Under the pieces are notes generated by a model that had not been told where the DNA came from, ran no database searches, and saw nothing but the letters and a program-made list of their open reading frames with translations. From an uncultured Planctomycetaceae bacterium (GTDB lineage: Bacteria; Planctomycetota; Phycisphaerae; SM23-33), in NCBI GenBank assembly GCA_964642855.1, contig CAZXSK010000001.1:111637-175636 (forward strand): a DNA stretch of 64,000 nt. Reading direction: 5' to 3'. The translations under genes were made by a program, and so were the position numbers. This document shows positions 41,139 through 56,955 of the stretch, piece by piece. Numbering within the stretch: position 1 is the first letter of the stretch; each line of letters begins with the position of its first letter.

Positions 41139-41816
41139 ATGACCAGTCCATCTGCCGACAATGATCGCTCGCGACTGCTCCGCTGGCGCATGGTGGAAGA
41201 CCAGCTCCGAAACCGGGGAATCAGCGACGAACGGATTCTCGAGGCTTTCATGCAGGTCCCTCGAGAGACCTTCGCCCACGGTTGCACACTCGACCAAGCC
41301 TACTCCGACTCGCCCCAACCGATTGGACACGGGCAGACAATCTCCCAACCTTACATCGTCGCGCAGATGATCGAGAAGCTCGCGCCCGGGCCCCACGACC
41401 GGATCCTTGATGTCGGCCTGGGCAGCGGGTACCAAGCCGCTCTGCTCGCCAAGCTGGCAGGGCACGTTTACGCCATCGAACGCCTGCAGGAACTCACGGA
41501 GCGTGCGACCGAAGCCTTGGCGACTACAGGTGTCGACAACGTTACCACCTGCACCGGAGACGGTACGCTGGGCTGGCCGGAGGAAGCCCCGTTCGACGGG
41601 ATCATCTGCGGCGCCGCCGGGCCGTCCGTCCCCGATCCGTGGCTGGATCAACTCGCAGAGGGCGGGCGCATCGTGGTACCGGTCGGTAGCGAGGGCATCC
41701 AGGAGCTGCTGGTCTGTGAGAAGCAGGGAGACCGCATCCGCAGGCGTTCGTTCGGTGGGGTGCGGTTCGTCAAGCTCATCGGCGAGGAAGGCTGGCAGCA
41801 GTCACAGCCCCGCTAG
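41139..41816 (+). CDS. pcm: protein-L-isoaspartate O-methyltransferase
   Basis: SRLLRWRMVEDQLRNRGISDERILEAFMQVPRETF...GHGQTISQPYIVAQMIE...VLDVGLGSGYQAALLA, a close match to the Pcm family. Confidence 0.9.
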   Translation: MTSPSADNDRSRLLRWRMVEDQLRNRGISDERILEAFMQVPRETFAHGCTLDQAYSDSPQPIGHGQTISQPYIVAQMIEKLAPGPHDRILDVGLGSGYQAALLAKLAGHVYAIERLQELTERATEALATTGVDNVTTCTGDGTLGWPEEAPFDGIICGAAGPSVPDPWLDQLAEGGRIVVPVGSEGIQELLVCEKQGDRIRRRSFGGVRFVKLIGEEGWQQSQPR

Positions 41817-43091: not shown

Positions 43092-44156
43092 TCAGGAGGC
43101 CTTCTTCGCCTTCAGCCTCATGCGCTTGGCGTACCCCAACTGCTTCATGATGTTGTCATAGATCACGTTGCTTTCCTGGGGAAACGGGTCCTCCTTGACG
43201 CCGATCATCATGTCCCGAAGCTCCTGAAGTACGCCGATCGCCTCGTTCCACTGTCTGCTTTCCATGGCAATAAAGGCGGCCTTGTACATGTTCCACAGGT
43301 CGGTCTTGAGCTTGTCCTTCGCCCGGGTGAATTGGCGGTCGTCCTCGACCTCTGCGAAGGCCGTTCCCGAGTGTGCCAGATGGAGCTTGTAGAACTTCAC
43401 CGCCCGGTAGAGATTGCCCGCCCGATCGCGTTCCCGGTACATCCGCCGGGCCTGCTCGAGCATCTTCTCGGCCGCCAGCCGGTCCTTCGGGATCTGCGCC
43501 TTGGTACGAAGAGGCCCTTCGATCGTCGTATTGACATCCATCTGCGTCAGCCGGTCCGGCCGATTGGACTGCTCCACTTCTTCCGCACTGGGACGAAGCA
43601 GAATCACGGCGAGCAGGACCACCAGCCCCACGCCGTAGAGCACGCCAAAGAGAACGTACTTGCGGGTCTTGTTTTCGCTGGACTCCTCAGCGTCCTGCTT
43701 GCGGTCTTCCCGCGTCTGCTTCGGCTGGGGCTCGGGCGGTTCTGCGTCTTCCTCCAGGACCTCGGAGGGCACTTCGTCGGGCTCGGGGACCAGGGGCTCT
43801 TTCTGGATGCTCACCCCCGCCTCGGCCATCGCCTGCCTCGGGTCATCGCCCGGCGCGACGAAGAACATCTGGGTATCGTTGCCCACGGCCAGGATGTCGC
43901 CCGTATCCAGCAGGATCTTCTTGCCCGACTTGTAGCGTTTGCCGTTGATCCGCGTCCCGTGTGAGGAGAGGTTCTCGACAATCCAGCCTTCGCGGGTGAG
44001 CTCGAACTGAAGCTGCTTTCGCGAGACTGATTCCTCCTCAAGCTGGATCTGCGCTTCAGGCGAGCGGCCCGCGATCGTGAGGCGATCGGTCACGAGCGCA
44101 TGCTCCCCAGCCTGGGGACCAGAAAGAAATACAAGTTCCGGCAGTGGCGAACTCAT
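43092..44156 (-). CDS. FHA-domain membrane protein (Tad-locus associated)
   Basis: Start MSSPLPELVF. FHA core LTIAGRSPEAQIQLEEESVSRKQLQFELTREGWIVENLSSHGTRINGKRY...GDILAVGN. An acidic linker and a transmembrane helix (YVLFGVLYGVGLVVLLAVILL) are followed by a C-terminal alpha-helical domain. Its ATG overlaps the tadC stop (TGATG). Confidence 0.8.
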   Translation of the reverse strand: MSSPLPELVFLSGPQAGEHALVTDRLTIAGRSPEAQIQLEEESVSRKQLQFELTREGWIVENLSSHGTRINGKRYKSGKKILLDTGDILAVGNDTQMFFVAPGDDPRQAMAEAGVSIQKEPLVPEPDEVPSEVLEEDAEPPEPQPKQTREDRKQDAEESSENKTRKYVLFGVLYGVGLVVLLAVILLRPSAEEVEQSNRPDRLTQMDVNTTIEGPLRTKAQIPKDRLAAEKMLEQARRMYRERDRAGNLYRAVKFYKLHLAHSGTAFAEVEDDRQFTRAKDKLKTDLWNMYKAAFIAMESRQWNEAIGVLQELRDMMIGVKEDPFPQESNVIYDNIMKQLGYAKRMRLKAKKAS

Positions 44157-45139
44157 CAGAACAGTCCCTCGTTGACCGCCCGGATAATCATCGGGCCGAA
44201 AATCGCGAGAATCACAGCCATCAGCAGCAGGAGGCAGGGCAGGAGAATCCGAACGCTGGCAACGGCGGCGCGGTCTTCCGCGCGGACCGACCGCTGCAGC
44301 CTGAGCAACGAGGCCTGGTCGTGTAGCACGTCGCCCAGGGGTGTGCCCAACTGTTCGGCCTGGATGACACTGGCAATGATGCTCCGCAGCGACTCGAGAG
44401 GGATCCGGTCTGCCATGTTCTGCAGCGCCCGCTGGCGCGTGGTGCCCAAGTCCATCTCGGCGAGCATGGTCCGCAGTTCGACGTTCAGCGGATCGTCGGA
44501 CGCTTCTGCAACGATGGTCTGGGCGGCTTCGGCGAACGTTGCCCCCGCCCCCATCGCCAAGGCGATCAGGTCCAGGGCGTACGGTACACGGCGCGAGATG
44601 ATCATCAGGCGCTCCTGGGCCTTGGAGTACAACTGGTAAATCATCAGGAAGAACCCGGCCAGGAAGGCTACGAACACCAGGATGAAGCTGAACCGCCCCA
44701 GCACGAGCAGGTGGAAGGCCTCCAGCAGCGCCGCGGCGCCGATACCGGCGAGGATGGCGATCGCGAGGTATTCTTCCGGCGTGTAGTAGTTCGGGCTGCC
44801 CGCTGCGACGATGGTCCGCCGCAGCCATCGCTTGACACGCGGTATTGACAGGCGGTACCCCATCGCAAGCAGAAACCACATCAAAGGCCGGGTGGCAGGA
44901 TGTTCGAACACCGTCTCGCGGTCGGCGTGTCCGGTTGCGATCGCCGCTGCCCGCTGGGGCGAGAGTTTGGGCGTGCCCGTCTGCGAGAACATCGCGATCA
45001 CGAACATGGAGATCGACAGGCCGAACATCGACGACAGCATGCCCTGCAGGAAATAGCCCGACCACAGCGCGATCAGCAGCCCCAGCAGTACCCATCCGGG
45101 CAGAAACCCCAACAGGATGATCAAATTGGTTCGCTTCAT
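44156..45139 (-). CDS. tadC: Flp pilus assembly protein TadC (T2SS-F domain)
   Basis: Polytopic membrane protein with GspF/T2SSF-like cytoplasmic loop (PLESLRSIIASVIQAEQLGTPLGDVL). Confidence 0.85.
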   Translation of the reverse strand: MKRTNLIILLGFLPGWVLLGLLIALWSGYFLQGMLSSMFGLSISMFVIAMFSQTGTPKLSPQRAAAIATGHADRETVFEHPATRPLMWFLLAMGYRLSIPRVKRWLRRTIVAAGSPNYYTPEEYLAIAILAGIGAAALLEAFHLLVLGRFSFILVFVAFLAGFFLMIYQLYSKAQERLMIISRRVPYALDLIALAMGAGATFAEAAQTIVAEASDDPLNVELRTMLAEMDLGTTRQRALQNMADRIPLESLRSIIASVIQAEQLGTPLGDVLHDQASLLRLQRSVRAEDRAAVASVRILLPCLLLLMAVILAIFGPMIIRAVNEGLF

Positions 45140-45164
45140 ATTGGTGCGTTTGCTCGGCAGATGA

Positions 45165-46031
45165 TCATATGTCGATCTGTACGGTCTTGCGTATCCACAG
45201 GAACCCCGCGACGTTCAGCGCGATGATCGCAGCGATCACGACCTTTCCGAAGTCGTCGGTAAAAAGTGATCGAACGCCGGAGGAATCCACCAGGAAGTAG
45301 ATGATCGCCAGCACGGCAATAGGCATCGCACCCATCCACCGCGCGGTTGCCCTTCCCTGCGCGGTCAGGGCGTGGACGCGCTTCTCCAGTCGCTGAATCT
45401 CCCGGATACTTTCGGCGATCCGGTCGAGCGTCTCGCCCAGGTCGCCACCGCGCTCACGGTGTGTGTGCAACGCCGAGAACAGCAGCCGAAAGTCGCCCGA
45501 ATCGATACGATCGGCCGCCTTGAGCATCGCCTGGTCCAGCGGCACGCCGTATTCGTACTCCCGAATAAGGTGGGCAAACTCCTGGCGGATCGGAGCGGGT
45601 GCATCGCGAGCGACCATCTGCATAGACTGCACGAGGTTCAGCCCGGCCCGAACACCCGAAGCCAGCGTCTGTACCGCCGGCACGAGCTGGTCCTCAAGCT
45701 TCCGCCTGCGGCGACGCTGAAGGTACTTCAGAATCGACGAGGGAAGCAGCAGACCCGCTGCAAAGAACACCAACCCTCCCCAAAGGCTGGCCGTGGCTAT
45801 GTATCCGAAGATCGCCGCCACCAGAATGGCCATCCCGCAGAAGACCAGCACGAGGCGCGACGGGATGTCCAGTAGGAGCTGACCCCGAAGAACGCGGTCG
45901 AACTTGCGATCCTCCCTGGCGATGAAGTACAGCACGGGCCGCAGGCCGACGCCTACCGCCCCGCCGACAAGCACAAACAACATCACCGAAACCAGCAGGC
46001 TTGGCGTGACAGCCAGGATCGAGGCGATCAT
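45165..46031 (-). CDS. tadB: Flp pilus assembly protein TadB (T2SS-F domain)
   Basis: T2SSF-domain motifs (VQTLASGVRAGLNLVQSMQMVARDAPAPIRQEFAHLIREYEYGVPLDQAM). 4-nt overlap with the upstream ATPase gene. Confidence 0.85.
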   Translation of the reverse strand: MIASILAVTPSLLVSVMLFVLVGGAVGVGLRPVLYFIAREDRKFDRVLRGQLLLDIPSRLVLVFCGMAILVAAIFGYIATASLWGGLVFFAAGLLLPSSILKYLQRRRRRKLEDQLVPAVQTLASGVRAGLNLVQSMQMVARDAPAPIRQEFAHLIREYEYGVPLDQAMLKAADRIDSGDFRLLFSALHTHRERGGDLGETLDRIAESIREIQRLEKRVHALTAQGRATARWMGAMPIAVLAIIYFLVDSSGVRSLFTDDFGKVVIAAIIALNVAGFLWIRKTVQIDI

Positions 46032-47905
46032 GTGAACACCTCGATACCCAGCAGTTCGTCCTCGATCAGCTCCTCGGCGAAGTAGGGGATGTACCCGGTA
46101 TGGCGCAACTCGCCAAAGCGTCCGCGTTCTCCGGGGATCGGACGGGTCACGAAGATGTCCTCGGTGATGATGCGCGTGGTTTCCGGATCCAGGCCGACGA
46201 TCTCCGAAATGTGCGTAATCCGCCGCGAGCCGTCCTGCAGGCGGGCGATCTGCACCACCAGGTCCAGGGCGGCCGTGATCTGTTCGCGGATCGCGCGAAC
46301 GGGCATTTCTACGGCCATCATGACCATGGTCTCCAGCCGAAGGAGCGTGTCGGCGGGGTTGTTCGCGTGGATCGTCGACAGCGACCCGTCGTGGCCGGTG
46401 TTCATCGCCTGGAGCATGTCCAGCGCCTCGGGGCCTCTTACCTCGCCGACGATCAGGCGGTCGGGCCGCATACGCAGGGCATTGCGCACCAGGTCGCGAA
46501 TGGTGTATGCGCCCCGGCCCTCGATGTTCGCGGGTCGGGTTTCCAGCCGCACCAGGTGCTCCTGCTGAAGCTGGAGTTCGGCGGAGTCTTCGATCGTGAC
46601 GATCCGCTCCTCGGGAGGGATGAAATTACTCAGGACGTTCAGCGTTGTGGTCTTTCCGCTGCCCGTTCCGCCGGAGATCATGATGTTCTTCCTGCCCACC
46701 ACGCACGCCTTGAGGAACTGGGCCGACGACGCCGTCAGCGTGCTTCGCTCGACGAGGTCGTCGATCGTGAACGGGATTCTCGCGAATTTTCGGATCGTCA
46801 GGGTGGGTCCGGAGAGACTCAGCGGGTTGATTACGGCATTGACGCGCGAGCCATCCGGTAGCCGGGCATCCACCAGCGGCGTGGATCGGTCGATCCGCCG
46901 ACCGATCGGCGTGATGATCCGCTCGATGACGCTCTCGACGATTTCGTCGGAGAAGAAGCTGCGGCCGGTGTTCTGGAGCACGCCGTCTTTCTCGATGTAG
47001 ATTCGGTCGCGACCGACAACCATGATCTCGTTGACGTTGGGCATCTCCAGCAGGTCCTGCAAAGGCCCGTAGCCCAGCACGACGTCTTCGATCTCTTTCG
47101 AGAGCATGCGGCGGGCGATGTAGGATCGCAGTTCGGGCGTCAGACGAGGCGTGATCTTCGCCAGCTGGGAGTCCCACTCGCTCTCGACGGTGGCGACGTC
47201 GTCCTTCAAAGTGTGCGGACGGAGCCGCAACGGGAAGAACCCCACCACGTCGCCAATGATCCGCGAGAGGGCCTCCTCGTGCTTGGAATCCATCAGGTCG
47301 GTATCTTCGAACCCGTAGCTGTACATCAGCTTGCCAGTCGCGCGGCGGGTGATCTCGGTAACCACGCCCCGCCAGAGATACTCCCGCACGAGATGATCGG
47401 CCATTTCGGAGTCGATCTCTTCGAGGTGGTTGCCGATGATCTCCGCAAGATTCCGCTTGATCATCACGACAAGCTGCTCGTCGGCCGATCCCGCCTGGCC
47501 CGTCACCCGCAGGTTCAGCCGTTCGAGCAGTTCGGCGTGCATCTTCTGCTCGAGTTCGATCACGCGTTTGCGCGGGGAGACGGTCCGCTTCTCGCCGCGA
47601 ACCCGGCGGGCGGAGGGCTCCATCATGTACACGCTGTACTCGCCGAGGCGGACCTCATCGCCGAAGCTGATTTTCACCCGCTGCTTGACGGGCACGTCCT
47701 GGTTGGCGACGACCAGGCCATTGAGACCCAGCGATTCGATGAAGAACGTGCCATTCTCCTTGAGGATCCGAGCATGCTGACGCGAAACGAACGGGCTGCG
47801 CAGCGTTACGTCGTTGCTCTCGTCACGACCGATACTGACGTTCTCGTCATCGACCTCGACGACTTCCCGCTGGTCGGTGTACTGGTTGTAGACCCAGATC
47901 TCCAC
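46028..47905 (-). CDS. cpaF: CpaF/TadA secretion ATPase with N-terminal FHA domain
   Basis: N-terminus [49 protein letters not shown]...GDEVRLG is an FHA domain. Central and C-terminal regions carry Walker A ([15 protein letters not shown]), an Asp box, Walker B ([15 protein letters not shown]) and a His box ([12 protein letters not shown]). Confidence 0.9.
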
Positions 47906-47961
47906 GTACGATTCCTCAACCTTTCAGCAATACTGCAGGCTGTCTGCGCTCACGGGGGACG

Positions 47962-48756
47962 TTACCACCCCGAATCCGAACCACCCGATGCGCCGGACCT
48001 GGCAGGGAGGTTCCGCAGATCCGGGTTGACCCGGCCCGCATCGCGCCGGCGTGAGACCATGTTCGGATGCAGAACGCCGACCGTCAGCGAACCGTCCACC
48101 CAGGTCTTGACATTCTTGAATTGCTCGAACACCTCGGGCTCCAGCAGGACCTGAACCGTCCGGTACCGGCTGGGACTGTCGTCTCCTCCCCGCGATGCCC
48201 ACGAACGGCGCGTGTCGCTCGACTGGCCTTCGATACCTTCCACCTTGACTGCCGAAAGAATACGGTATGTCTTGCGCTGGCCTCGGGGAGGATCAACGAT
48301 CCCGTACACGTCGACGTAATCGCCCTTCTTGAGCAGTTGCCCCGGCGACGTGCGGGGATCGAACTCGATGGTGAACGCAGATTTGCTTTCGTCGCTCCAC
48401 TTCTCCGATCCGCCCACCTGCCCGAGGTCGGTGTGGAGGATGTACTCGCCCTTCTTGATCTGCCGGCTGGGACGGGTACCCAGCACGATCTCGGCGTTCT
48501 CCCGCTTGACGACCTTTCCGATCGAGTCCATCAGGTCTCTCGGAATACTCACCTCGCTGAGATGGTCGCTGGTGATCTCTTCGCCGGCTTCGATATTTCT
48601 GCTGGCGCGAATGACTTCTACCAGATCGCCCTTGCCTTCTTCACGAACCGCGCGAATGTGGAGGTTGTAGACCAGTGCCGCAGCCATGCCCAACGCCACC
48701 GACACGACCACCAGAACCACATTGCTCACGCCCTGACCGCTGGATTCTTCTGCCAT
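47962..48756 (-). CDS. cpaB: Flp pilus assembly protein CpaB/RcpC
   Basis: N-terminal transmembrane anchor followed by a SAF domain (VIRASRNIEAGEEITSDHLSEVSIP). Size and architecture fit CpaB. Confidence 0.75.
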   Translation of the reverse strand: MAEESSGQGVSNVVLVVVSVALGMAAALVYNLHIRAVREEGKGDLVEVIRASRNIEAGEEITSDHLSEVSIPRDLMDSIGKVVKRENAEIVLGTRPSRQIKKGEYILHTDLGQVGGSEKWSDESKSAFTIEFDPRTSPGQLLKKGDYVDVYGIVDPPRGQRKTYRILSAVKVEGIEGQSSDTRRSWASRGGDDSPSRYRTVQVLLEPEVFEQFKNVKTWVDGSLTVGVLHPNMVSRRRDAGRVNPDLRNLPARSGASGGSDSGW

Positions 48757-48769
48757 GTCTCGCCTCTCA

Positions 48770-49339
48770 TTACGAACCCGCCGACGAATCGGTCGGCCGG
48801 GCGATTACCAGTATTTCGACAATATTGCCCGTTGCAGACTGTTTTCGCAAGACCAGCTCGATGAATGCTCCGGGTTTTTGCAGAATCAGCCCCGGGGAGT
48901 CCTCCTCGCCCCGGCGTGAGAGCACTCGCCATCCGCGCTGCCTGGCGGTGCTGTCGTACCACGCGATCGCTTCTTCCTGGCCCGTGGAGCCTTGGTATTT
49001 CATCACGGTCAAACCGCCGGGCATCCGCCAGGCTTCGCTACGATCCATGCCCGACGGCGGAGGCAGGAGGTCCTCCGACTCCGGAATCGCGATCACCCCG
49101 GCAGCGGCAGCCGGATTGCTGAGGAAAGAGGCAAAATTCCCGTCCGCTGCGGGCTGGGGCACTTCTGCACTTCCCCGCGACTTGGAACCGTGGTCGGACT
49201 CCTGGTCCTTGCGGACGAGAAAGACGTGGATCTGCCAGGCGGCAAACACACCGGCCGCCAGGAGAAGAACGTACAACAGCAACCGGCCCGTAAGCCTGGG
49301 CCGGCCTCGCTTGCGAGGATGTTCTGCACGGAAGCCCAT
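48770..49339 (-). CDS. hypothetical membrane-anchored protein in Tad locus
   Basis: RLLLYVLLLAAGVFAAWQIHVF is a single transmembrane helix. No known motifs. Tightly packed between tadE and cpaB. Confidence 0.5.
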   Translation of the reverse strand: MGFRAEHPRKRGRPRLTGRLLLYVLLLAAGVFAAWQIHVFLVRKDQESDHGSKSRGSAEVPQPAADGNFASFLSNPAAAAGVIAIPESEDLLPPPSGMDRSEAWRMPGGLTVMKYQGSTGQEEAIAWYDSTARQRGWRVLSRRGEEDSPGLILQKPGAFIELVLRKQSATGNIVEILVIARPTDSSAGS

Positions 49340-49356
49340 GTATCCGAGAATCCGAT

Positions 49357-49953
49357 CTACCAGCCGTGACGGTAGAGATTTCGGACGGTCTGGGCAAGCT
49401 CCTCCCCCGGAGCGCTTACGTTCTCGAGGGCTTCATCGAGATCTTCGAGGAACAACTCCACCACTGCCGAACTGGGCGAACACTGACCCCGCTTCCAGGA
49501 CACCCCGTCGCGCAGATGCTCCCGCTGGATCGCTCCGGTGAACGACTGCCACGCCCCGACGTCCGAAGGGAACTCTGCCGAGACATATCCTCTCCAGCCC
49601 TTAGGGAACCTTCGCAGCACGCTCTCTTCGGCGTACTCTCCGGCCTCCCGCGAGACCTGGTCGGCTCCGTCAACGAGGTACTCCAGGGTGTCCAGGGGTC
49701 CCCTGCCGCCATGGATGGCCACGCCTTCAGCCCGGTCGCCAAAGAACCGCTGATTCAGTCCGTTGGGCTCGTCGTTTTGCATTCCGTTCCAGGCTGTATA
49801 GCGGGCGGATATCCGCACGTGCTGCTGGTCCATCATCGCCTTGCCGAAGAAAAACGTCAGCCCGATCACCAGCGCCAGGAGGGGCACGACCATGACGAAC
49901 TCGATCATCGCCGCTCCGCGTCGTCTGCAGGATTGTCTCGGTTTCAGTCTCAT
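49357..49953 (-). CDS. TadE-like pseudopilin
   Basis: RRRGAAMIEFVMVVPLLALVIGLTFFFG matches the TadE/TadG N-terminal motif. Start MRLKPRQ is internal to track ORF 49357..49977. Confidence 0.75.
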   Translation of the reverse strand: MRLKPRQSCRRRGAAMIEFVMVVPLLALVIGLTFFFGKAMMDQQHVRISARYTAWNGMQNDEPNGLNQRFFGDRAEGVAIHGGRGPLDTLEYLVDGADQVSREAGEYAEESVLRRFPKGWRGYVSAEFPSDVGAWQSFTGAIQREHLRDGVSWKRGQCSPSSAVVELFLEDLDEALENVSAPGEELAQTVRNLYRHGW

Positions 49954-50001
49954 GTCATTAGTGAAACCCGCCTGCACAAAGCGGGTATCGCCGGCCTGCG
50001 G

Positions 50002-52071
50002 TCAGTGATTCAGGTGTGTCTCCGCGAGATCTTCCGGGATGATTTCCAGGTATTCCAGAGCTTCCTGGACGTCGCCCGGAGACAGGAAATAGGCGGGTGT
50101 GTCGCCAAGCCCGGCTTCCATCCTCTGCATCCAGTCGTCCCACTTGCTTACCGGTGTAAGCGCGACTTCCCAATCCTGGGTCCACAGATCCCAACTGGAA
50201 TGATTGAACAGCTTCGCCTGCGAGACCGCAGTGATCGTCTCTGAAGGGTTGGCGTTCTTGAACTTCTGGGACCACACCGCGCTGCGGTCATGGGTGCGGG
50301 CAACAGCCAGGAAGCTGAAATATCTTCGCCGCCAGCCTTCATCCGGATCCCGGCTGTAGGGGTTGTAGTCACCTTCCGACGTGTCGATCATGATCGGATA
50401 CGGCAGGTCGGAGTCCGTGTCATAATTGCAGGGGTTGCGAACCTCGACCATCGGCCCGATGTCGACCCCGGCAAAAACCCAGAAAGCCGTCATGTACACC
50501 TTCTGCCAGATCGCCTCCTTGGTATCCTCGTCGATGATCAGCGATATGCCGATTTCCTCGTCGACGGTAGTTTCGTACCAGTAGTCATCCCGCCAGATGT
50601 GATCGGCTACCTTCGGCACGGACCACTTGTCCGGATCCTGCCAGCCACCGGCCCACACCGCGATCGGCCGCTCGCCGTTGGTCCGGTACGTGCCGTCCTC
50701 CAGCCAGCGGGAATCGGTCGGAGGATACTTCGACGCGACCTCCACCAGGTAGAACATGGTCTGGTGAACCTTGTTCGGGTCCTGCTGGGCGACGGTACGG
50801 GCCTTGGGATAAGGCCAGACCCACTGGGGGTAATGATACTCCTTCTCCTGCATGCCGGGCTTGAACATGTACTCCAGCTTGATGTTCGCCAGATCGTGAC
50901 AGAAGCGATAGAACTGCGTGTCGTTGAGGGCTCCCTCGTGATGCCGATACCACCTTGGCCCGTCCCACTGCCAGTGATCGTTGGCGTACCAGTCGATCCG
51001 CTCGAATGCCCAACGATACGGGCCGAACGTGTGATAGCCAATCGTCTTCCAGTCGCTCGGTGCCCACCGGCCTGCTGTTCCACCGTCGCTGTTGCCGCGT
51101 GCCGAGCCCCCTACACGCCGGCCTCCGACATTGACATTCCCCCCCCCGCCGCGCGTCTTGCCCACGCCCGGCGTTCCGGGCACCCACTGCCACGCAGTCG
51201 CCTGGCGAATGTAGTGCCTCCACCGATGCAGCCTCGCGTACGGGCCCAGACGGTGAGGATACTTCATATCGGGAATCGCCCCGCCCCTGCCGCCTTGTTC
51301 GGACACCGTAGCCGAGCCGTCGACGACTCGTTCACTGCCCACCAGGACCGGCCGGAAATCGGGGAACTCACCCCGCCTCGCCGGGATCACCGGAAGCAGT
51401 GGCGCGATGAAGGCTACGTCGGCGTGGCTTTCCTTTCCGAACTGGACGGCGTTGGCCTGGGCGAGGATGCCAGCCGATTCGCCCGTAGCCTCGGACACCT
51501 CGCCCAACGTGACCGCCGCCCGCCAGAGCATGCCCGACGGGGCACTGCCTCCCCGGTGCCAGTACGTGTACTCCGTCATGTCAAAGCCGCTGTGGTTGAT
51601 CGCCTCGTCGAAGGCGATCAGGATGTCCCTCTGGGTGGCCATGCGCTCCCGGAGCGAGGAAAGCCCTTCCTCCAGCAGGTCGCCGCCGCCGTTCATTGGC
51701 GGGATGCTGCGCTGGAGCTGGTACTCAAGCATCTTCTCCCACTCGGTGGTTTCCTTGCGGGACATCTCGGTGCCCAACGGCAGGGCATCCATGACGGGCA
51801 CCAGCGCGATGAGCTTCGCCTGCCCCGTATTGTTCATCGCGACCATGTTCATCGACCGCGCCATCCAATTGGCCCCGCTGATGGCGGCGGAATCCGCGGC
51901 GTTCTGCATCTCCAGCCTGCGGTTGACCTGGTCGCCGAGGTTGTAGACGAAGAAGATCAGCCCGACCAGAACCGTCATGCCGATCAGCGTGACAACCAGC
52001 ACCTGTCCGCGGCGCCGGCGACCCGTGCCCGTCGGACGAATGCGTTTCGTTCTGGCCAGTCTCATTCCCAT
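50002..52071 (-). CDS. TadG-like large Tad pilus-associated protein (Trp-rich)
   Basis: RRRRGQVLVVTLIGMTVLVGLIFFVYNLG (Tad N-terminal motif, PF13400-like). 689 aa, followed by a long Trp/Tyr-rich extracellular region. Confidence 0.7.
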   Translation of the reverse strand: MGMRLARTKRIRPTGTGRRRRGQVLVVTLIGMTVLVGLIFFVYNLGDQVNRRLEMQNAADSAAISGANWMARSMNMVAMNNTGQAKLIALVPVMDALPLGTEMSRKETTEWEKMLEYQLQRSIPPMNGGGDLLEEGLSSLRERMATQRDILIAFDEAINHSGFDMTEYTYWHRGGSAPSGMLWRAAVTLGEVSEATGESAGILAQANAVQFGKESHADVAFIAPLLPVIPARRGEFPDFRPVLVGSERVVDGSATVSEQGGRGGAIPDMKYPHRLGPYARLHRWRHYIRQATAWQWVPGTPGVGKTRGGGGNVNVGGRRVGGSARGNSDGGTAGRWAPSDWKTIGYHTFGPYRWAFERIDWYANDHWQWDGPRWYRHHEGALNDTQFYRFCHDLANIKLEYMFKPGMQEKEYHYPQWVWPYPKARTVAQQDPNKVHQTMFYLVEVASKYPPTDSRWLEDGTYRTNGERPIAVWAGGWQDPDKWSVPKVADHIWRDDYWYETTVDEEIGISLIIDEDTKEAIWQKVYMTAFWVFAGVDIGPMVEVRNPCNYDTDSDLPYPIMIDTSEGDYNPYSRDPDEGWRRRYFSFLAVARTHDRSAVWSQKFKNANPSETITAVSQAKLFNHSSWDLWTQDWEVALTPVSKWDDWMQRMEAGLGDTPAYFLSPGDVQEALEYLEIIPEDLAETHLNH

Positions 52072-52091
52072 GATTTGTCTCGAAGAATCGA

Positions 52092-54842
52092 TCAGGAGCC
52101 CTGATCGGCCTGCTCGGCCTTTTCCAGCAGATCCTGGACCTCGGGGGTATTCTTCATGCTTTTGGCGATCACGAAATACGCCTTGGCGCTCTTGGCTTCA
52201 CCTTCGGCCAGTGCCTCCTTGCCCAGCCGGATGTTCATGCCGTATTTGGCGTCGCGAATCCCATCGGCTACTGCTGCAGGAGGCGTGGGGTACACCTCGC
52301 CGGCGTTCTCGAACAGGTTGATGGCCTTCTTGAAATCCTCCGCCTCCAGGGCAGCCCGGGCGGCGGTCATGCGCTTCTCGAACTCCACCTTCCGGGCCAT
52401 CGCTTCCTGCAGAGATTCCACGCGCAGCTTCTCGGAAGGTTTGATGCCAATGGCCTTCTCGTAGGCCGATGCGGCCTTGGCGTATTCACCTTCGTCCCGC
52501 AGCTGATTGGCCTTGTCCAACTGGATCTCGAACTGGCAGGTGATGATCTTCGCATCCAGCTCGGCGCCCTGGCGGATCTTCCGGGCGTCCATGAACTTCT
52601 CCAACGCCTCGTCCCAGTCCCGTGCGACCATCGCGGCGTCCCCAGCTGCCACCAGCGAGCTGTATTCGGCGTTCTCCTGCAACTCATCCAGCGCATCCTT
52701 GGCCTTCTGATTGTCCGGATTGACCTGCAATGCCCGAACGAACAGTCGCTCGGCTTCCTTGGTCTCACCGTCGACCAGGGCCTTGTTGGCGACGCTTACG
52801 TAGTAGTCGGACTCTACAGTCTTGATCCGCTCGGCCAGTTGTGGCGAGGAACGGATCTCCGAAGCGGCTTTGAGATTCTTCAACTCCTCGGCCAGGTTTC
52901 CACGCTTGGCTGCGCGCTCTGCAGCGGTCATCGCCTCGGCATATTCCCTGCTGCCCTGCATGCTTTCCTTGCGCATCGAGGCCATCTCGCGAAGGTTCTC
53001 GATACGGTCTTCTCCCAGGAGTCGTTCGTTCCTGGGATCATCGAGTTTCTCTACCAGTTCCCCGTAGACCTCTGCTGCAGCTGCGTAGTCCTGCTGCTCG
53101 GCCAGTTCGTCCCCACGTGCCAACATGGTCGAGAGCTGATTCTCCAGTTCGGCCTTGTCGACCTTCTCGATGAAATCGTAGTAGCGCGTCTCAAACATCT
53201 TCTGACCGGCGTCCAGTCGGCCGTATCGATCCCGCAGGACGTCTCGGGCCTGTTTGAATTCCTTGCTATCCAGGTGCTGCTGGGCTTCCTCCAAAGCCGT
53301 CAGGAAGTCCCTGCTGTTCTGGTAGTAGCTGGAGAGATTCTCGATCTCGGTTTCAACGATTCCACTGGCCCAGTCGGCCAGAGGCTGGTCGTATTTTGTC
53401 TGCACGAGGATCGCCTTGCGTTTGGCTTCGTCGCGGGCGGTAGCGGCGGCCTTCCAGTCCTGACTATCCACCGCGACGCGGCCCCTGGCGACTTCCAGGA
53501 GCACCGACGCCTTGGCGTATTCCAGCGTGTCCCGGTACTTCTCACGGATCGCTTCAAACTCCGGGATGGACTCCGCGAATTTCCGTTCGTCGAAGAGCTT
53601 CTTCGCTTCGGCGTAGGACGACTGGACCTGCTCCTGGTAGGCCTTCTTCTGGAAGTGCTTCTGCAGACCCAGCGTGATGCCCACCCCGAGGATCCCCAGC
53701 ACCACGACCGCAGCGAGCACAATTTTTGTCCGTGTCGAAAAGCTCGTTTTGGGCACCGGGGCAGTCGGCGCGGCGTCATCGACCGAGTCGCTGCTGCCTT
53801 CCTTCTTACCCGGCAGTGAAGCCCCTTCCAGTGCGCCACCGAGGCTGGTGTCGTCCAGTTGGACCTGCGCCCCTCCCGCTGCCCGCCGGCCCGCTTGACC
53901 GGCCTTTCTCGCCGATCGCCCGCGCGATCCGCCTGCCGCCTTGCGGGCCTTGGGCGAGAAACCCAGCTTGATCGCGCGGCCGAGTTCTTCCATCCCCGCG
54001 TACCGGTCCCGCGGGTCCTTGGCAATCATCTTCATCACGATGTGAGAGAGTTCCGACGGCACCTGCGGATTGATCTCGACCGGGGGCGGGGCTTTCACAC
54101 CCGGGTTACCATGCCATTTCATCCACCGGAGGTGTTCGCTGTGCTTGTCGCGCGTGATGTCGGCGAAGACCTCATTGAATTTGTCCCGCCCGAGCAAAAG
54201 CTCGTACATGATGAAGCCCAGCGAATACATGTCCGCACGCCCGTCGACTGGCTCGTCGCTTTCTCCGTACAGCTCCGGGGCCATGTACTTGGTGGTCCCA
54301 AGGACCATGGAAGTCTGTCCACTGCTGCCGGCCGCTACGCCGAAATCGGCGATCTTCGGATGCAGCCCTTCGGTGACGATGATATTGGCGGGTTTGATGT
54401 CCCGGTGGATGATTCCCGCCGCGTGGACGTCGTGCAAAGCGGCCGCCAGTCGCCAGAGAATCTGGAGCACCGCCTTCGGCTCGGTCGGGCCAGGATTGTC
54501 GGCAAGCACCCTCTCCAGGCTCGGGCCCTTGACGTATTCCATGACGATGAACAGCCCCTGCTCCTCCTGGAGAAGCTCGTGGATCGTCACCACGGCAGGC
54601 TGTTCCTGTCCGAGACGGGCCAGGATCTGGGCTTCCTTTCGGAACCGTTCGAGAAACTCTTCGTCGGCGGCAAGATGGGTCGACACCTGCTTGATCGCCA
54701 CGTCGCGATCGAGAAGCGGGTCGTGACAGCGATAGATGACCGCCTGCCCGCCGATCGCAAGGCGTTCGATCACCTCGTACTTGCCGATCCTGGTTCCGGG
54801 CCTGAGCCCGACGTCTTTTCCCTGTCCGTCCTGGTTGGCCAT
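52092..54842 (-). CDS. Ser/Thr protein kinase with transmembrane segment and C-terminal TPR repeats
   Basis: Hanks-type kinase motifs: GGQAVIYRCHD...AIK (subdomain I/II), HRDIKPANII (VIb), DFG (VII), APE (VIII). Transmembrane helix IVLAAVVVLGILGVGITL. Roughly 500 aa of TPR-like repeats. Confidence 0.9.
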   Translation of the reverse strand: MANQDGQGKDVGLRPGTRIGKYEVIERLAIGGQAVIYRCHDPLLDRDVAIKQVSTHLAADEEFLERFRKEAQILARLGQEQPAVVTIHELLQEEQGLFIVMEYVKGPSLERVLADNPGPTEPKAVLQILWRLAAALHDVHAAGIIHRDIKPANIIVTEGLHPKIADFGVAAGSSGQTSMVLGTTKYMAPELYGESDEPVDGRADMYSLGFIMYELLLGRDKFNEVFADITRDKHSEHLRWMKWHGNPGVKAPPPVEINPQVPSELSHIVMKMIAKDPRDRYAGMEELGRAIKLGFSPKARKAAGGSRGRSARKAGQAGRRAAGGAQVQLDDTSLGGALEGASLPGKKEGSSDSVDDAAPTAPVPKTSFSTRTKIVLAAVVVLGILGVGITLGLQKHFQKKAYQEQVQSSYAEAKKLFDERKFAESIPEFEAIREKYRDTLEYAKASVLLEVARGRVAVDSQDWKAAATARDEAKRKAILVQTKYDQPLADWASGIVETEIENLSSYYQNSRDFLTALEEAQQHLDSKEFKQARDVLRDRYGRLDAGQKMFETRYYDFIEKVDKAELENQLSTMLARGDELAEQQDYAAAAEVYGELVEKLDDPRNERLLGEDRIENLREMASMRKESMQGSREYAEAMTAAERAAKRGNLAEELKNLKAASEIRSSPQLAERIKTVESDYYVSVANKALVDGETKEAERLFVRALQVNPDNQKAKDALDELQENAEYSSLVAAGDAAMVARDWDEALEKFMDARKIRQGAELDAKIITCQFEIQLDKANQLRDEGEYAKAASAYEKAIGIKPSEKLRVESLQEAMARKVEFEKRMTAARAALEAEDFKKAINLFENAGEVYPTPPAAVADGIRDAKYGMNIRLGKEALAEGEAKSAKAYFVIAKSMKNTPEVQDLLEKAEQADQGS

Positions 54843-54901
54843 CTACTGCATCCTGATTGTAAAGAACCCGTCGGCGTCGCTTGGTGGGCGTCGCCGACCT
54901 G

Positions 54902-55855
54902 TCAGTCCACGGTATCGAACCGTTCCACGTCGACGTAATCCTGCGCGCCCTCGTTCTTCATGAAACACGTGGCACGGATCTCCATACCATATTCTCCGTC
55001 GCCGAAGCTCAGCTCCGCCCCGTCGTCGTCCAGCGTAGCAAACAGCCAGGCTCCGTAAGGCACGGAAAGGTACAGCGTGTGATCCACTGTCACCTTGATC
55101 TCTTCGTCAGCCCGGTACCTCTCGTTGTCCGCCGGCGGATTGATCTCGACCGAGGTATAGTCGTCCGCGTAGCCGATCTTCCGGGCGATGCGCCCGTCAA
55201 CCCATCCTGGCGTATCCAAGCCCTGGCTCTGGAAGAAATCGGCGAGACCGTCCGTCAGGCCACGATCGTCCGCCGAGGCCAGCGACCGATTTCCGCAGGC
55301 AACCGGGAGAAGCGCATAGACGGCTGCCCGCTTGACGCGCAGATGCTTGAGCGAGCCGGCCGGAGGGTCCAGCCGGTTGGCGCCCTCGCCGCCGCGGCCG
55401 CTGAAGTCTGCCGGAATCTGAACAACCGCCGATCTGCAGGCGCAGTAGGCGGCGTAGTGCACGCAGAGATTGCCCCCCATCAGCATCGATGACTGCACCA
55501 TGACCAGCACGATCATCAGCATGATCGGCAGAACAAGAGCGAATTCGACAATCGCGGCGCCTCCCTGCCCGTCGCGAGGCTTGCGACGCTGCCTTGCACC
55601 CGACCGCCACAGGAGGACCATCAGCCCTGAGAGACCGGCCGAGCCGACAACGACCACCACGAGGCATCGCAGGAACAACGGCGAAGTAACCGCCGAGACA
55701 ATCCACGAGGAGTTCCATCTGCCACGAAGCGCAGGCCAGGCTACCGCGGCTACCAAGGCAAGAGAACCGGCCAGCGTGACAAGCCAAGCCTTCAGCGCAT
55801 CACGAAAGCCCGGGCCCGTTGCCTCGCAGCCGGGATGTACGTCGGATCGATCCAT
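54902..55855 (-). CDS. TadE/TadG-like pseudopilin
   Basis: GGAAIVEFALVLPIMLMIVLVMVQ matches the TadE motif. Start MDRSDV chosen to abut cpaA (6-nt gap) rather than the track's upstream start. Confidence 0.7.
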   Translation of the reverse strand: MDRSDVHPGCEATGPGFRDALKAWLVTLAGSLALVAAVAWPALRGRWNSSWIVSAVTSPLFLRCLVVVVVGSAGLSGLMVLLWRSGARQRRKPRDGQGGAAIVEFALVLPIMLMIVLVMVQSSMLMGGNLCVHYAAYCACRSAVVQIPADFSGRGGEGANRLDPPAGSLKHLRVKRAAVYALLPVACGNRSLASADDRGLTDGLADFFQSQGLDTPGWVDGRIARKIGYADDYTSVEINPPADNERYRADEEIKVTVDHTLYLSVPYGAWLFATLDDDGAELSFGDGEYGMEIRATCFMKNEGAQDYVDVERFDTVD

Positions 55856-55860
55856 TTCGG

Positions 55861-56439
55861 TCAGATCCCGAAGGGCCAGCGTGCCGCCGCCGGGCCGCGA
55901 ATCAGCGTTTCCACGATCGCCAATGCCGTCCCGATGCAAAGCGCAAGTCCGAAAGGCACCTTCGGGCTGTCTTTCGTTGCAGGATCAGGCGGCCGGCCTG
56001 GCGTCATGCACAGATACAGGAAACGAACGATGCGTCCCATCGTCTCCTTCAGTACGTGACGCTGAAGCATGACGGCAACCGCCATCAGCGCCGCTACGGC
56101 GAAACCATAGAACATTGCGGCCAGTGTCAGACGCCAACCCGCAAGGGCGCCCACTGCGCCCATCAGTTTCGCGTCGCCGCCGTTGATCCCGCCTGCAAAC
56201 CAGGCAACCAGCATGGGGATGAACCCCACACCGAACCCCGCCAGCGCGCCAACAAAGCCCAGCCGATCTTCCCCGCCGGTGAGACCGCCAACCAGCGTAT
56301 GGCCGATCAGCCCGATGGCGATGGCTGGGTACGTCAGGTAGTTGTAGATCTTACCGCTGCGGACGTCGGTGACCGAAGCGGCTATCAGAACCGCAGCCAG
56401 TACCACCAGCGCCCACGCGTATGTCCACACGGGCGGCAT
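55861..56439 (-). CDS. cpaA: prepilin peptidase CpaA/TadV (A24 family)
   Basis: Polytopic membrane protein with GGINGGDAKLMGAVGALAGW (A24 peptidase active-site Asp region). Confidence 0.85.
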   Translation of the reverse strand: MPPVWTYAWALVVLAAVLIAASVTDVRSGKIYNYLTYPAIAIGLIGHTLVGGLTGGEDRLGFVGALAGFGVGFIPMLVAWFAGGINGGDAKLMGAVGALAGWRLTLAAMFYGFAVAALMAVAVMLQRHVLKETMGRIVRFLYLCMTPGRPPDPATKDSPKVPFGLALCIGTALAIVETLIRGPAAARWPFGI

Positions 56440-56492
56440 GGGACTATTGTACCAGAAGACCCATGCCGCCCGCGAGCGCTACTCGAGGGTTC

Positions 56493-56708
56493 TCAGATTT
56501 CATCCGGCGACATTCCCTCGCGTCCCTTGGCCTTGTCCCAAAGCTCGCCAGCCCACTGGGAAATGTCCTTCCAGAACCAGATGATCACAGCCAGCAGAGG
56601 CAGGGCGATTGCGGCAATCACGAGAATGTACTCGACCATGTCCGCTCCGCCTTCGTCCCGGTGCAGCGCCCGCAGCATGCTTCTGACCTTGTTTACCATC
56701 GTATTCAT
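56493..56708 (-). CDS. flp: Flp/Fap pilin
   Basis: HRDEGG^ADMVEYILVIAAIALPLLAVIIWF is the Flp motif (G/xxxxEY followed by a hydrophobic stretch). 71 aa. Confidence 0.8.
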   Translation of the reverse strand: MNTMVNKVRSMLRALHRDEGGADMVEYILVIAAIALPLLAVIIWFWKDISQWAGELWDKAKGREGMSPDEI

Positions 56709-56763
56709 GAGTTCTTCCTCGGATCAGATCCGTACTTCGCCTTCGGCCGTTCCTGCTGATCCG

Positions 56764-56949
56764 TCAGGGAAACGGCAGCGTCTCCAGAAAACTAACCATG
56801 GCGTAATGCGTCACCAGGACATCCAGCAGAATCGCGAGCACCGCGATCATCGGAATCCCAAAGGCCACCAGAAGCAGTGTCCACTCGACCGTCTGCTGGC
56901 CGCCCTGGTCCCGGTGAAACCTTCGAACTCTCTGCATCCACGGTGCCAT
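56764..56949 (-). CDS. flp: Flp/Fap pilin (second paralog)
   Basis: HRDQGG^QQTVEWTLLLVAFGIPMIAVLAILL is Flp-like. 61 aa. Confidence 0.75.
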   Translation of the reverse strand: MAPWMQRVRRFHRDQGGQQTVEWTLLLVAFGIPMIAVLAILLDVLVTHYAMVSFLETLPFP

Positions 56950-56955
56950 CTCGCC

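What the first reader, a model, noticed from the sequence alone, without database searches (positions are those of the whole stretch)
46028..47905. CpaF/TadA motor ATPase with an N-terminal FHA domain
The first roughly 100 aa ([26 protein letters not shown]...GDEVRLG) form a canonical FHA fold. The rest is a complete secretion ATPase with Walker A and B, Asp and His boxes. A phosphopeptide-recognition module welded to the pilus motor would directly couple the motor to the neighbouring Ser/Thr kinase. This domain architecture is not the standard one for Tad ATPases.
Basis: partly seen in the sequence, partly recalled or inferred. Interest (0 to 1): 0.55.

Follow-up and report, generated by a model that had tools for sequence, protein, structure and literature searches.

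The report
FHA-fused Tad pilus motor ATPase
The gene really encodes a Tad/Flp pilus motor ATPase (CpaF/TadA) with a phosphothreonine-reader (FHA) domain fused to its front end, but this architecture is already published and is common in this bacterial group, so it is a solid and fairly ordinary find with some interesting context.

Summary
ORF 46028-47905 (-) is one uninterrupted 625-aa gene with an N-terminal FHA domain (Pfam 56 bits, cut-off 20.7; the model is confident over residues 1-96, pLDDT block means 77-91, and matches GarA/OdhI FHA structures). A short basic linker and a helical region follow, then a complete CpaF/TadA ATPase (E about 1e-110 to solved CpaF).

The architecture is not new. 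It is "class III CpaF" (Nat Commun 2025) and occurs in Myxococcus KilF (eLife 2021). The 120 best hits listed (73-100% identity) all carry FHA plus ATPase, and public annotations already name both domains.

The gene lies in a 14-gene Phycisphaerae-type tad operon. The operon also encodes a membrane Ser/Thr kinase, a second FHA membrane protein and a second, short CpaF paralogue.

In 82 comparison loci, FHA-fused CpaF goes with a nearby kinase (6/11 vs 1/71) and a second CpaF paralogue (7/11 vs 1/71). It never co-occurs with TadZ/CpaE (0/11 vs 64/71).

The best reading is kinase-to-FHA phosphothreonine signalling that recruits or gates the motor in place of TadZ. That step is inferred, not shown.

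Verdict: new member of a known kind, with modest interest.

The parts
46028..47905 (-). FHA-CpaF: the Tad/Flp pilus motor ATPase with an N-terminal FHA domain (625 aa, GTG start)
   Evidence: ORF. Pfam FHA plus T2SSE. Solved CpaF structures 8rkd/9e24 match at E about 1e-110 over aa 266-604. The 120 best hits listed are 73-100% identical and of similar length (618-643 aa, one 599-aa partial).
47618..47905 (-). FHA domain (aa 1-96), with phosphothreonine-pocket residues R27, S41, R42 and N62 and structural residues G26 and H44
   Evidence: Pfam 56 bits. The residues are invariant in 20 homologues. AF2 pLDDT block means 77-91. Foldseek matches to GarA/OdhI FHA structures, TM 0.70-0.86.
47567..47617 (-). 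Short basic linker (aa 97-113) carrying a conserved [ST]110-P-R-[KR]-[KR]-V motif
   Evidence: Alignment A1: S 15/20, T 5/20, P 19/20. pLDDT is low at residues 100-108.
47111..47566 (-). Helical region (aa 114-265) that leads into the CpaF N-terminal domain; it probably includes the three-helix bundle of CpaF
   Evidence: AF2 predicts helices 111-131, 142-163, 166-190, 207-223, 230-254 and 257-287. Foldseek aligns 421-435 columns to CpaF chains of 422-424 residues.
46031..47110 (-). CpaF N-terminal and C-terminal ATPase domains (aa 266-625) with Walker A (412-420), Walker B-like (482-491) and His box (503-515)
52092..54842 (-). Membrane Hanks-type Ser/Thr kinase (916 aa): cytoplasmic kinase domain, one transmembrane helix, and a helical/TPR-rich C-terminal domain predicted to lie outside the cytoplasm
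   Evidence: Pfam Pkinase E 1.5e-46 plus TPR. K51, HRD 146-148, DFG 166-168, T183 and APE are invariant in 5 orthologues. The gene is conserved in the operon in L001 and L002.
43092..44156 (-). Second FHA protein (354 aa): N-terminal FHA, acidic linker, transmembrane helix and a C-terminal helical domain. Its ATG overlaps the TadC stop codon (TGATG).
   Evidence: Pfam FHA E 6.7e-12. Start codon. The best NCBIfam match is the T6SS protein TagH, below cut-off. A gene of this kind is conserved downstream of TadC in L001, L002, L006 and L064.
45165..46031 (-). TadB/CpaG platform protein; its start overlaps the CpaF stop codon (ATGA)
   Evidence: Pfam T2SSF E 5.8e-21; coordinates.
44156..45139 (-). 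TadC/CpaH platform protein
   Evidence: Pfam T2SSF E 1.3e-15.
47962..48756 (-). CpaB/RcpC
   Evidence: Pfam SAF plus RcpC. NCBIfam pilus_cpaB E 1.9e-16, below cut-off.
56956..58077 (-). Second, short CpaF paralogue (373 aa). It has no FHA and no helical N-terminal region, its ATPase motifs are intact, and it is the first gene of the operon.
   Evidence: Pfam T2SSE E 3.2e-57. 48% identity to aa 280-612 of FHA-CpaF. It forms its own clade, sister to the FHA-CpaF clade. It co-occurs with FHA-CpaF in 7/11 loci against 1/71.
48770..56949 (-). The remaining operon genes: two Flp pilins (56764-56949, 56493-56708), prepilin peptidase CpaA (55861-56439), TadE-like (54902-55939), TadG-like (50002-52071), TadE-like (49357-49977) and an unknown 189-aa protein (48770-49339). 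The kinase listed above also lies within this span.
   Evidence: The same gene order occurs in L001 and L002.

Best explanation
Shown: the gene encodes the motor ATPase (CpaF/TadA) of a Tad/Flp (type IVc) pilus-like machine of a Phycisphaerae-type planctomycete. A genuine FHA domain, apparently competent to bind phosphothreonine, is fused to the N-terminus through a short basic linker. The gene lies in a 14-gene co-directional operon. The operon also encodes a membrane Hanks-type Ser/Thr kinase with a sensor domain predicted to lie outside the cytoplasm, a second FHA protein anchored in the membrane, the TadB/TadC platform, pilins, a prepilin peptidase and a second short CpaF paralogue. It has no TadZ/CpaE.

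Inferred: the kinase responds to a signal outside the cytoplasm and phosphorylates threonines on itself or on a platform or scaffold component. The FHA domain of the motor, and that of the membrane FHA protein, dock on those phosphothreonines. This recruits or activates the hexameric motor at the TadB/TadC platform. Pilus assembly would then be switched by phospho-signalling rather than positioned by TadZ, in analogy to the PpkA-Fha1 threonine-phosphorylation pathway of type VI secretion.
For: Domain identity: Pfam FHA at 56 bits and T2SSE at 208 bits; CpaF structures at E about 1e-110; FHA fold from AF2 plus Foldseek.

Phosphothreonine-pocket residues R27, S41, R42 and N62 are invariant in 20 close homologues. 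In 26 diverse relatives they are mostly kept: R27 24/26, S41 21/26, N62 19/26.

Operon: 14 co-directional genes with gaps of 59 nt or less. CpaF/TadB overlap (ATGA) and TadC/FHA-protein overlap (TGATG).

The same gene order, including the kinase, the FHA membrane protein and the second ATPase, occurs in relatives of about 75% identity whose flanking genes differ. In relatives of 39-41% identity the kinase has moved to directly after the FHA membrane protein but stays in the cluster (L006, L064).

The kinase has all catalytic residues.

Association tests on 82 loci:
- kinase within 10 kb: 6/11 FHA-fused loci vs 1/71 non-fused, p = 8.7e-6; four of the five negatives are truncated contigs
- TadZ/CpaE-like gene: 0/11 vs 64/71, p = 2.3e-9, and none anywhere in the window

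Literature: FHA-fused CpaF is 'class III' (PMC12019362). Myxococcus KilF is FHA-fused in a Tad-like system with many FHA proteins, and those authors proposed a signalling cascade by analogy to type VI secretion (PMC8460266).
Against: There is no direct evidence for phosphorylation or for FHA-phosphothreonine binding.

No PP2C phosphatase partner was found in the operon, in the sampled remainder of the window, or in L001/L002.

The kinase is absent from the one FHA-fused locus with full flanks (Myxococcota L005).

Some members of the same clade have an N-terminal region in which Pfam no longer detects FHA. The FHA of the membrane partner has Q in place of the conserved His and H in place of the conserved Asn (sequence). 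Phosphate-independent binding is therefore possible.

The p-values overstate the evidence.
Confidence: 0.6

Rival explanations
1. The FHA domain is a phosphorylation-independent docking module, like the FHA-like cytoplasmic domains of the type III secretion ring proteins YscD/EscD/PrgH. It simply tethers the motor to the platform or to the FHA membrane protein and so replaces TadZ. The kinase acts on other targets or only on transcription.
For: Pfam Yop-YscD_cpl gives weak hits to both FHA proteins. Some clade members have N-termini in which FHA is no longer detectable. The pocket residues are not universal in diverse relatives (S41 21/26, N62 19/26). The partner protein's FHA lacks the conserved His and Asn. 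TadZ is absent from every fused locus, so a recruiting function is needed in any case.
Against: R27, S41, R42, H44 and N62 are invariant across the window's own family; that level of conservation is expected only if the phosphate pocket is in use. Kinase co-occurrence is strong (6/11 vs 1/71).
Confidence: 0.2
2. The FHA domain acts in cis as an autoinhibitory switch, as in GarA/OdhI. The kinase phosphorylates the motor's own linker, the FHA folds back on it, and this changes hexamer assembly or activity. One possible effect is switching between extension and retraction.
For: The closest solved FHA domains are GarA/OdhI, which work this way. The linker carries a conserved [ST]-P-R-[KR]-[KR]-V motif. 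The N-terminal disordered region of Caulobacter CpaF is reported to matter for function (PMC12019362, section heading seen).
Against: The conserved linker position is Ser in 15/20 and Thr in only 5/20, and FHA domains strongly prefer phosphothreonine (established knowledge). The linker is only about 17 residues long. The motif is not conserved in diverse relatives.
Confidence: 0.15
3. The fusion is an artefact: a frameshift or assembly error has joined a separate FHA gene to cpaF.
For: None found.
Against: The reading frame is single and uninterrupted. The top 120 hits, drawn from NCBI, JGI, ENA and Logan, all have the same architecture and similar length. The start residues are conserved. 58 of the 150 best 50%-identity cluster representatives also carry an N-terminal FHA.
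Confidence: 0.01

Closest known systems
Class III CpaF (FHA-IDR-3HB-NTD-CTD), e.g. Achromobacter xylosoxidans E3HIW0 (PMC12019362, Nat Commun 2025)
   Same: Same domain order: an N-terminal FHA, a linker, a helical bundle, then the CpaF N-terminal and ATPase domains.
   Different: All 17 class III examples in that paper are Beta-/Gammaproteobacteria or Acidithiobacillia, and the Planctomycetota sampled there are class I or II. The linker here is short (about 17 aa) and the helical region long (about 150 aa). Whether the planctomycete and proteobacterial fusions share one origin was not resolved here.
KilF of the Myxococcus xanthus Kil (Tad-like, contact-dependent killing) system (PMC8460266, eLife 2021)
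   Same: A CpaF-type ATPase fused to an N-terminal FHA. Additional FHA-domain proteins are encoded in the cluster. The paper says Kil involves a single ATPase, which I read as no TadZ-type second ATPase. The authors proposed a signalling cascade. An FHA-fused homologue from a Myxococcota MAG (L005) is 61% identical in its best segment.
   Different: Here all genes lie in one operon rather than two clusters. A Ser/Thr kinase is embedded in the operon. A second CpaF paralogue is present. No secretin was found in the operon. Function in predation is unknown.
Caulobacter crescentus CpaF (class II; PDB 8rkd, 9e24)
   Same: The ATPase core matches solved CpaF at E about 1e-110 over aa 266-604, with all catalytic motifs. 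It sits next to the TadB/TadC homologues.
   Different: Caulobacter CpaF has a disordered N-terminus and no FHA. It works with CpaE/TadZ, which is absent here.
Type VI secretion threonine-phosphorylation pathway (PpkA kinase, PppA phosphatase, Fha1/TagH)
   Same: A membrane Hanks-type kinase and FHA reader proteins are encoded inside the operon of an envelope-spanning machine. The membrane FHA protein's best NCBIfam match is TagH.
   Different: No PP2C phosphatase was found. The TagH match is far below its cut-off (37 vs 120 bits).
TadZA fusion ATPase of Bdellovibrio bacteriovorus (bioRxiv 10.64898/2026.07.08.737194)
   Same: A localisation or regulatory module is fused to the N-terminus of the Tad motor through a linker.
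   Different: There the fused module is the ParA/MinD-like TadZ. Here it is an FHA domain, and TadZ is missing altogether.

Membership tests
CpaF/TadA Tad-pilus ATPase (PilT/VirB11-like secretion ATPases) | Walker A, acidic (Asp) box, Walker B with catalytic Glu, and His box | tested here: met
   GGTGSGKTT 412-420, [11 protein letters not shown] 433-443, [10 protein letters not shown] 482-491, [13 protein letters not shown] 503-515. The key residues are invariant in 26 diverse relatives.
CpaF/TadA Tad-pilus ATPase (PilT/VirB11-like secretion ATPases) | Closest similarity to experimentally characterised CpaF rather than to PilB/PilT/GspE/VirB11 | tested here: met
   CpaF 8rkd/9e24 score 371 bits (E about 1e-110). 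Archaeal GspE/FlaI score 155-162 bits, VirB11 about 100 bits and PilT about 44 bits. Foldseek also ranks CpaF first.
CpaF/TadA Tad-pilus ATPase (PilT/VirB11-like secretion ATPases) | Genomic context with TadB/TadC, CpaB, Flp pilins and a prepilin peptidase | tested here: met
   Translational overlap with TadB.
CpaF/TadA Tad-pilus ATPase (PilT/VirB11-like secretion ATPases) | A curated NCBIfam model score above its cut-off | tested here: inconclusive
   The best model, TIGR03819 (TadA family, conjugal-transfer-associated), scores 324.6 bits against a cut-off of 373. That model describes a different subfamily.
FHA domain (PF00498) | Profile match above the gathering score over the full domain | tested here: met
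   56 bits against 20.7, profile 1-67/67, aa 23-88.
FHA domain (PF00498) | Conserved Gly-Arg, Ser-x-x-His and Asn-Gly residues | tested here: met
   G26-R27, S41-R42-Q43-H44 and N62-G63. All except G63 are invariant in 20 homologues; G63 is G in 14 and E in 6.
FHA domain (PF00498) | Beta-sandwich fold | tested here: met
   AF2 pLDDT block means 77-91 over residues 1-100, with 10 strands of at least 3 residues. Foldseek matches to GarA/OdhI/Rv0020c FHA structures, TM 0.70-0.86 and rmsd 1.9-3.1 A.
FHA domain (PF00498) | Binding of phosphothreonine peptides | not testable with these tools
   This needs ITC or fluorescence polarisation with phosphopeptides.
Class III CpaF (PMC12019362) | Architecture FHA - linker/IDR - three-helix bundle - NTD - ATPase domain | tested here: met
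   The linker is short (aa 97-113).
Class III CpaF (PMC12019362) | Common descent with the proteobacterial class III sequences | tested here: inconclusive
   In a rough NJ tree all 69 FHA-positive sequences fall in one 146-tip subtree of 238, but with many apparent gains and losses (28 Fitch changes). The published class III sequences themselves could not be fetched.
Kil-type Tad-like system (Myxococcus) | FHA-fused motor, no TadZ, and several FHA proteins in the cluster | tested here: met
   The Kil features are taken from PMC8460266.
Kil-type Tad-like system (Myxococcus) | A short secretin (KilC) lacking the N0 domain, and genes split over two clusters | tested here: not met
   No secretin was detected among the operon genes or the sampled ORFs of the window, and all genes lie in one operon. 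A secretin elsewhere in the genome cannot be excluded.
Kil-type Tad-like system (Myxococcus) | Contact-dependent prey killing | not testable with these tools
   This is a phenotype.
Threonine-phosphorylation pathway of the T6SS type (kinase / FHA / PP2C) | An active membrane Hanks-type kinase in the same operon as the FHA reader | tested here: met
   Pkinase E 1.5e-46. K51, HRD, DFG and APE are invariant, and a transmembrane helix is present. The kinase is conserved in the operon.
Threonine-phosphorylation pathway of the T6SS type (kinase / FHA / PP2C) | A cognate PP2C phosphatase | tested here: not met
   None in the operon, in the sampled ORFs of the window, or in the precomputed Pfam lists of L001/L002.

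The most novel reading that the evidence does not exclude
This operon may represent a distinct, widespread sub-type of Tad machine found in Planctomycetota, Myxococcota and some other Proteobacteria. In this sub-type the ParA-like positioning ATPase TadZ has been replaced by a eukaryote-like Ser/Thr kinase plus two FHA readers, one of them fused to the motor. A second, FHA-less CpaF paralogue is also retained. Extension and retraction, or signal-dependent and constitutive activity, would then be divided between two motors instead of one bifunctional CpaF. Such a system might be a Kil-like contact-triggered device rather than an adhesion pilus.
Probability: 0.3. Interest if true: 0.6.

Novelty: new member of a known kind. 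Interest (0 to 1): 0.3.

Why it matters
Tad pili are thought to use a single bifunctional motor whose placement depends on TadZ/CpaE. How the motor is switched on and off is an open question.

FHA-fused motors offer a direct handle on that question, because phospho-signalling would act on the motor itself. Here the fusion comes with a ready-made candidate pathway in one conserved operon: a kinase, two FHA readers and the motor.

In the loci sampled, FHA fusion and TadZ never occur together. This suggests a testable idea, that phosphothreonine docking substitutes for TadZ-based recruitment.

The architecture itself is already published and is annotated in public databases. The value of this window lies in that comparative context, not in a new discovery.

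Tried and rejected
1. Frameshift or gene-fusion artefact: rejected.

2. Structure prediction of the whole protein from 20 close homologues gave a confident FHA domain but a low-confidence ATPase part (mean pLDDT 54.6). The ATPase assignment therefore rests on sequence matches to solved CpaF structures, not on the model.

Lineage is inferred from the names of close hits, 'Phycisphaerae bacterium' and 'Planctomycetes bacterium'. The exact protein is in NCBI without a name.

4. A literature search for 'KilF' returned only unrelated words. One search failed on a syntax error. Searches for an experimental link between a Ser/Thr kinase and an FHA-fused Tad motor found none.

5. My narrow FHA HMM, built from close homologues, undercounts FHA. 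Pfam recovered FHA in one of seven long clade members that the HMM missed; the other six have an undetectable or degenerate N-terminal domain.

6. The conserved linker motif [ST]-P-R-K-R-V was considered as the FHA ligand. This is unlikely, because the position is mostly Ser.

7. A search for a secretin, TadZ or PP2C in the rest of the window found only housekeeping genes. Not every ORF was scanned.
Full report
**1. The observation**

The ORF at 46028-47905 on the minus strand is real. It is 625 aa long and starts with GTG. A GAGGA ribosome-binding-like sequence lies 7 nt upstream.

Pfam reports two domains above their gathering scores:
- FHA at aa 23-88 (E 5.7e-15, 56 bits against a cut-off of 20.7, covering the whole profile)
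- T2SSE at aa 280-556 (E 2.2e-61)

Against the sequences of solved structures, aa 266-604 match the Tad motor CpaF (8rkd, 8rjf, 9e24) at E about 1e-110. Archaeal GspE/FlaI, VirB11 and PilT match far less well. The N-terminus matches the FHA proteins GarA/OdhI.

The canonical FHA residues are all present: G26-R27, S41-R42-x-H44 and N62-G63. G26, R27, S41, R42, H44 and N62 are invariant in 20 homologues of 73-83% identity.

An AlphaFold2 model built on that alignment is confident for residues 1-96 (pLDDT block means 77-91) and shows 10 beta strands there. Foldseek superposes this part on GarA, OdhI and Rv0020c FHA structures (TM 0.70-0.86 normalised to the target, rmsd 1.9-3.1 A). It puts CpaF first for the remainder. 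The ATPase part of the model is of low confidence, so that assignment rests on sequence.

Walker A, the acidic box, Walker B and the His box are intact and invariant in 26 diverse relatives.

The 120 best hits listed, from NCBI, JGI, ENA and Logan assemblies, have similar length and the same two Pfam domains. A frameshifted or chimeric gene is therefore excluded.

**2. The surroundings**

The gene lies in a string of 14 co-directional genes on the minus strand, from 58077 down to 43092. Intergenic gaps are 59 nt or less, and there are two start/stop overlaps: CpaF/TadB (ATGA) and TadC/next gene (TGATG).

In order of transcription the genes are:

| Coordinates | Product |
|---|---|
| 56956-58077 | short CpaF paralogue, 373 aa, 48% identical to aa 280-612 of the FHA form |
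| 56764-56949, 56493-56708 | two Flp-type pilins |
| 55861-56439 | prepilin peptidase |
| 54902-55939 | TadE-like protein |
| 52092-54842 | membrane Ser/Thr kinase, 916 aa |
| 50002-52071 | TadG-like protein |
| 49357-49977 | TadE-like protein |
| 48770-49339 | unknown 189-aa protein |
| 47962-48756 | CpaB |
| 46028-47905 | FHA-CpaF |
| 45165-46031 | TadB |
| 44156-45139 | TadC |
| 43092-44156 | second FHA protein with a transmembrane helix, 354 aa |

The kinase has all catalytic residues: K51, HRD, DFG, the activation-loop T183 and APE. It also has a transmembrane helix and a long helical/TPR C-terminal domain.

No secretin, TadZ/CpaE or PP2C phosphatase was found in the operon or in the sampled remainder of the window. 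The rest of the window encodes housekeeping genes, sulfatases and a chemoreceptor.

Close homologues are named Phycisphaerae or Planctomycetes bacterium, which places the window in that lineage.

**3. Conservation and distribution**

Two metagenomic relatives of about 75% identity, L001 and L002, have the same 14-gene order. This includes the kinase, both FHA proteins and the short ATPase. Their flanking genes differ, so the operon is the conserved unit.

A search of 1.84 billion cluster representatives found 40,706 relatives. Among the best 150, 58 carry an N-terminal FHA by a family-specific HMM.

- Planctomycetaceae
- Pirellulaceae
- Phycisphaerales
- Phycisphaeraceae
- a Myxococcota MAG
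- a 'Deltaproteobacteria' MAG
- Chromatiales
- a Gammaproteobacteria MAG

**4. Association tests**

I tested 82 loci, of which 11 are FHA-fused and 71 are not.

| Feature within 10 kb | FHA-fused | Non-fused | Fisher p |
|---|---|---|---|
| Hanks-type kinase | 6/11 | 1/71 | 8.7e-6 |
| Second short CpaF paralogue | 7/11 | 1/71 | 6.6e-7 |
| TadZ/CpaE-like gene | 0/11 | 64/71 | 2.3e-9 |

Four of the five fused loci without a kinase are truncated contigs.

The TadZ HMM was built from five upstream genes that Pfam confirmed as receiver-like plus ParA/MinD proteins. No TadZ-like ORF exists anywhere in the 64-kb window.

In the more distant Phycisphaerae loci L006 and L064 the order is FHA-CpaF, TadB, TadC, FHA protein, kinase. 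The kinase has changed position but stayed in the cluster.

A rough neighbour-joining tree of ATPase cores puts the window protein in a clade made up mostly of FHA-fused sequences. The short paralogues form a separate sister clade.

Three caveats apply. The locus sample is not random. Loci within a lineage are not independent. The tree is crude.

**5. Mechanism**

Shown: this is an FHA-fused CpaF motor in a TadZ-less tad operon that also encodes an apparently active membrane Ser/Thr kinase and a second, membrane-anchored FHA protein.

Inferred (about 0.6): the kinase creates phosphothreonine docking sites, either on itself or on a platform or scaffold component. The FHA domains bind those sites, and this recruits or activates the motor at TadB/TadC. 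That would take over the recruiting role of TadZ, in analogy to PpkA-Fha1 in type VI secretion.

Two rivals remain:
- Phosphate-independent tethering, as with the FHA-like domains of type III secretion ring proteins (about 0.2). It is favoured by degenerate FHA domains in some relatives and in the partner protein.
- A GarA/OdhI-like fold-back onto a phosphorylated linker (about 0.15). It is disfavoured because the conserved linker position is mostly Ser.

**6. Comparison with what is known**

FHA-fused CpaF is published as 'class III' CpaF. It accounts for 17 of 292 sampled orthologues, all proteobacterial or Acidithiobacillia. The Planctomycetota in that sample were class I or II (PMC12019362).

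The Myxococcus Kil system uses an FHA-fused CpaF (KilF), has many FHA proteins, and is described as involving a single ATPase, which I read as lacking TadZ. Its authors already proposed a T6SS-like signalling cascade (PMC8460266).

N-terminal regulatory fusions to the Tad motor are also known from the Bdellovibrio TadZA protein.

Public annotations already label close homologues as 'CpaF family ATPase / FHA protein'.

I found no paper that tests a kinase-FHA link for a Tad motor.

**7. Verdict**

The architecture is already known and is common in this phylum, so this is a new member of a known kind.

Three things go beyond the published descriptions: the operon-embedded kinase, the conserved second CpaF paralogue, and the apparent mutual exclusion of FHA fusion and TadZ. 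These are comparative leads and would need a proper census and experiments.

Interest: 0.3.

Noticed in passing
window 56956-58077 (-): A second, short CpaF paralogue (373 aa; no FHA and no helical N-terminal region; intact Walker and His motifs) is the first gene of the same operon. Orthologues form their own clade and accompany FHA-CpaF in 7/11 fused loci against 1/71 others. Two CpaF-type motors in one tad operon does not fit the 'single bifunctional motor' picture.
   Followed up: partly
whole window; loci L001-L082: TadZ/CpaE-like genes are absent from the window and from all 11 loci with FHA-fused CpaF, but present in 64/71 loci with unfused CpaF. FHA fusion and TadZ look mutually exclusive in this sample.
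   Followed up: yes
window 43092-44156 (-): The last operon gene encodes an FHA - acidic linker - transmembrane helix - helical domain protein (354 aa). Its FHA keeps Gly-Arg and Ser but has Gln in place of the conserved His and His in place of the conserved Asn. Its best curated-family match is the type VI secretion protein TagH, far below cut-off. A gene of this kind follows TadC in L001, L002, L006 and L064.
   Followed up: partly
window 52092-54842 (-); L006 14519-16993; L064 14294-16456: The kinase domain and transmembrane helix are conserved, but the C-terminal domain differs completely between lineages. It is helical/TPR-like in the window, L001 and L002, and unrelated and shorter in L006 and L064. 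The kinase's position in the cluster also differs.
   Followed up: partly
window 47567-47617 (-), aa 97-113 of FHA-CpaF: The linker carries a motif, [ST]-P-R-[KR]-[KR]-V, that is conserved in close homologues but not in distant ones. It could be a phosphosite or a basic docking or nucleotide-independent contact element.
   Followed up: partly
window 43092-58077 and the sampled remainder of the window: No secretin (CpaC/RcpA) and no PP2C phosphatase were detected in the operon, in the ORFs scanned in the window, or in the operons of L001/L002. The outer-membrane channel and the phosphatase, if they exist, are encoded elsewhere.
   Followed up: partly
window 58285-58370 (+): A tRNA-Ser (CGA) gene lies about 200 nt upstream of the first operon gene, on the opposite strand. 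The flanks of the operon differ between relatives, which is compatible with the operon moving as a unit.
   Followed up: no
proteins P0160, P0164, P0213, P0218, P0254, P0270 (representative library): Six members of the same CpaF clade have an N-terminal extension of similar length (about 280 aa) in which Pfam no longer detects FHA. Their reader domain is either degenerate or replaced.
   Followed up: partly
protein P0122 (representative library, 1156 aa): One representative contains three tandem T2SSE ATPase domains, each about 56% identical to the window protein. It is either a covalently linked multi-ATPase or a gene-calling or assembly artefact.
   Followed up: no
window 3614-5032 (-), 41813-43039 (-), 8349-11126 (-): There are two sulfatase genes and a dCache-type chemoreceptor in the window. 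I consider sulfatases typical of Planctomycetota genomes (my own knowledge, not tested here), which would fit the lineage assignment.
   Followed up: no
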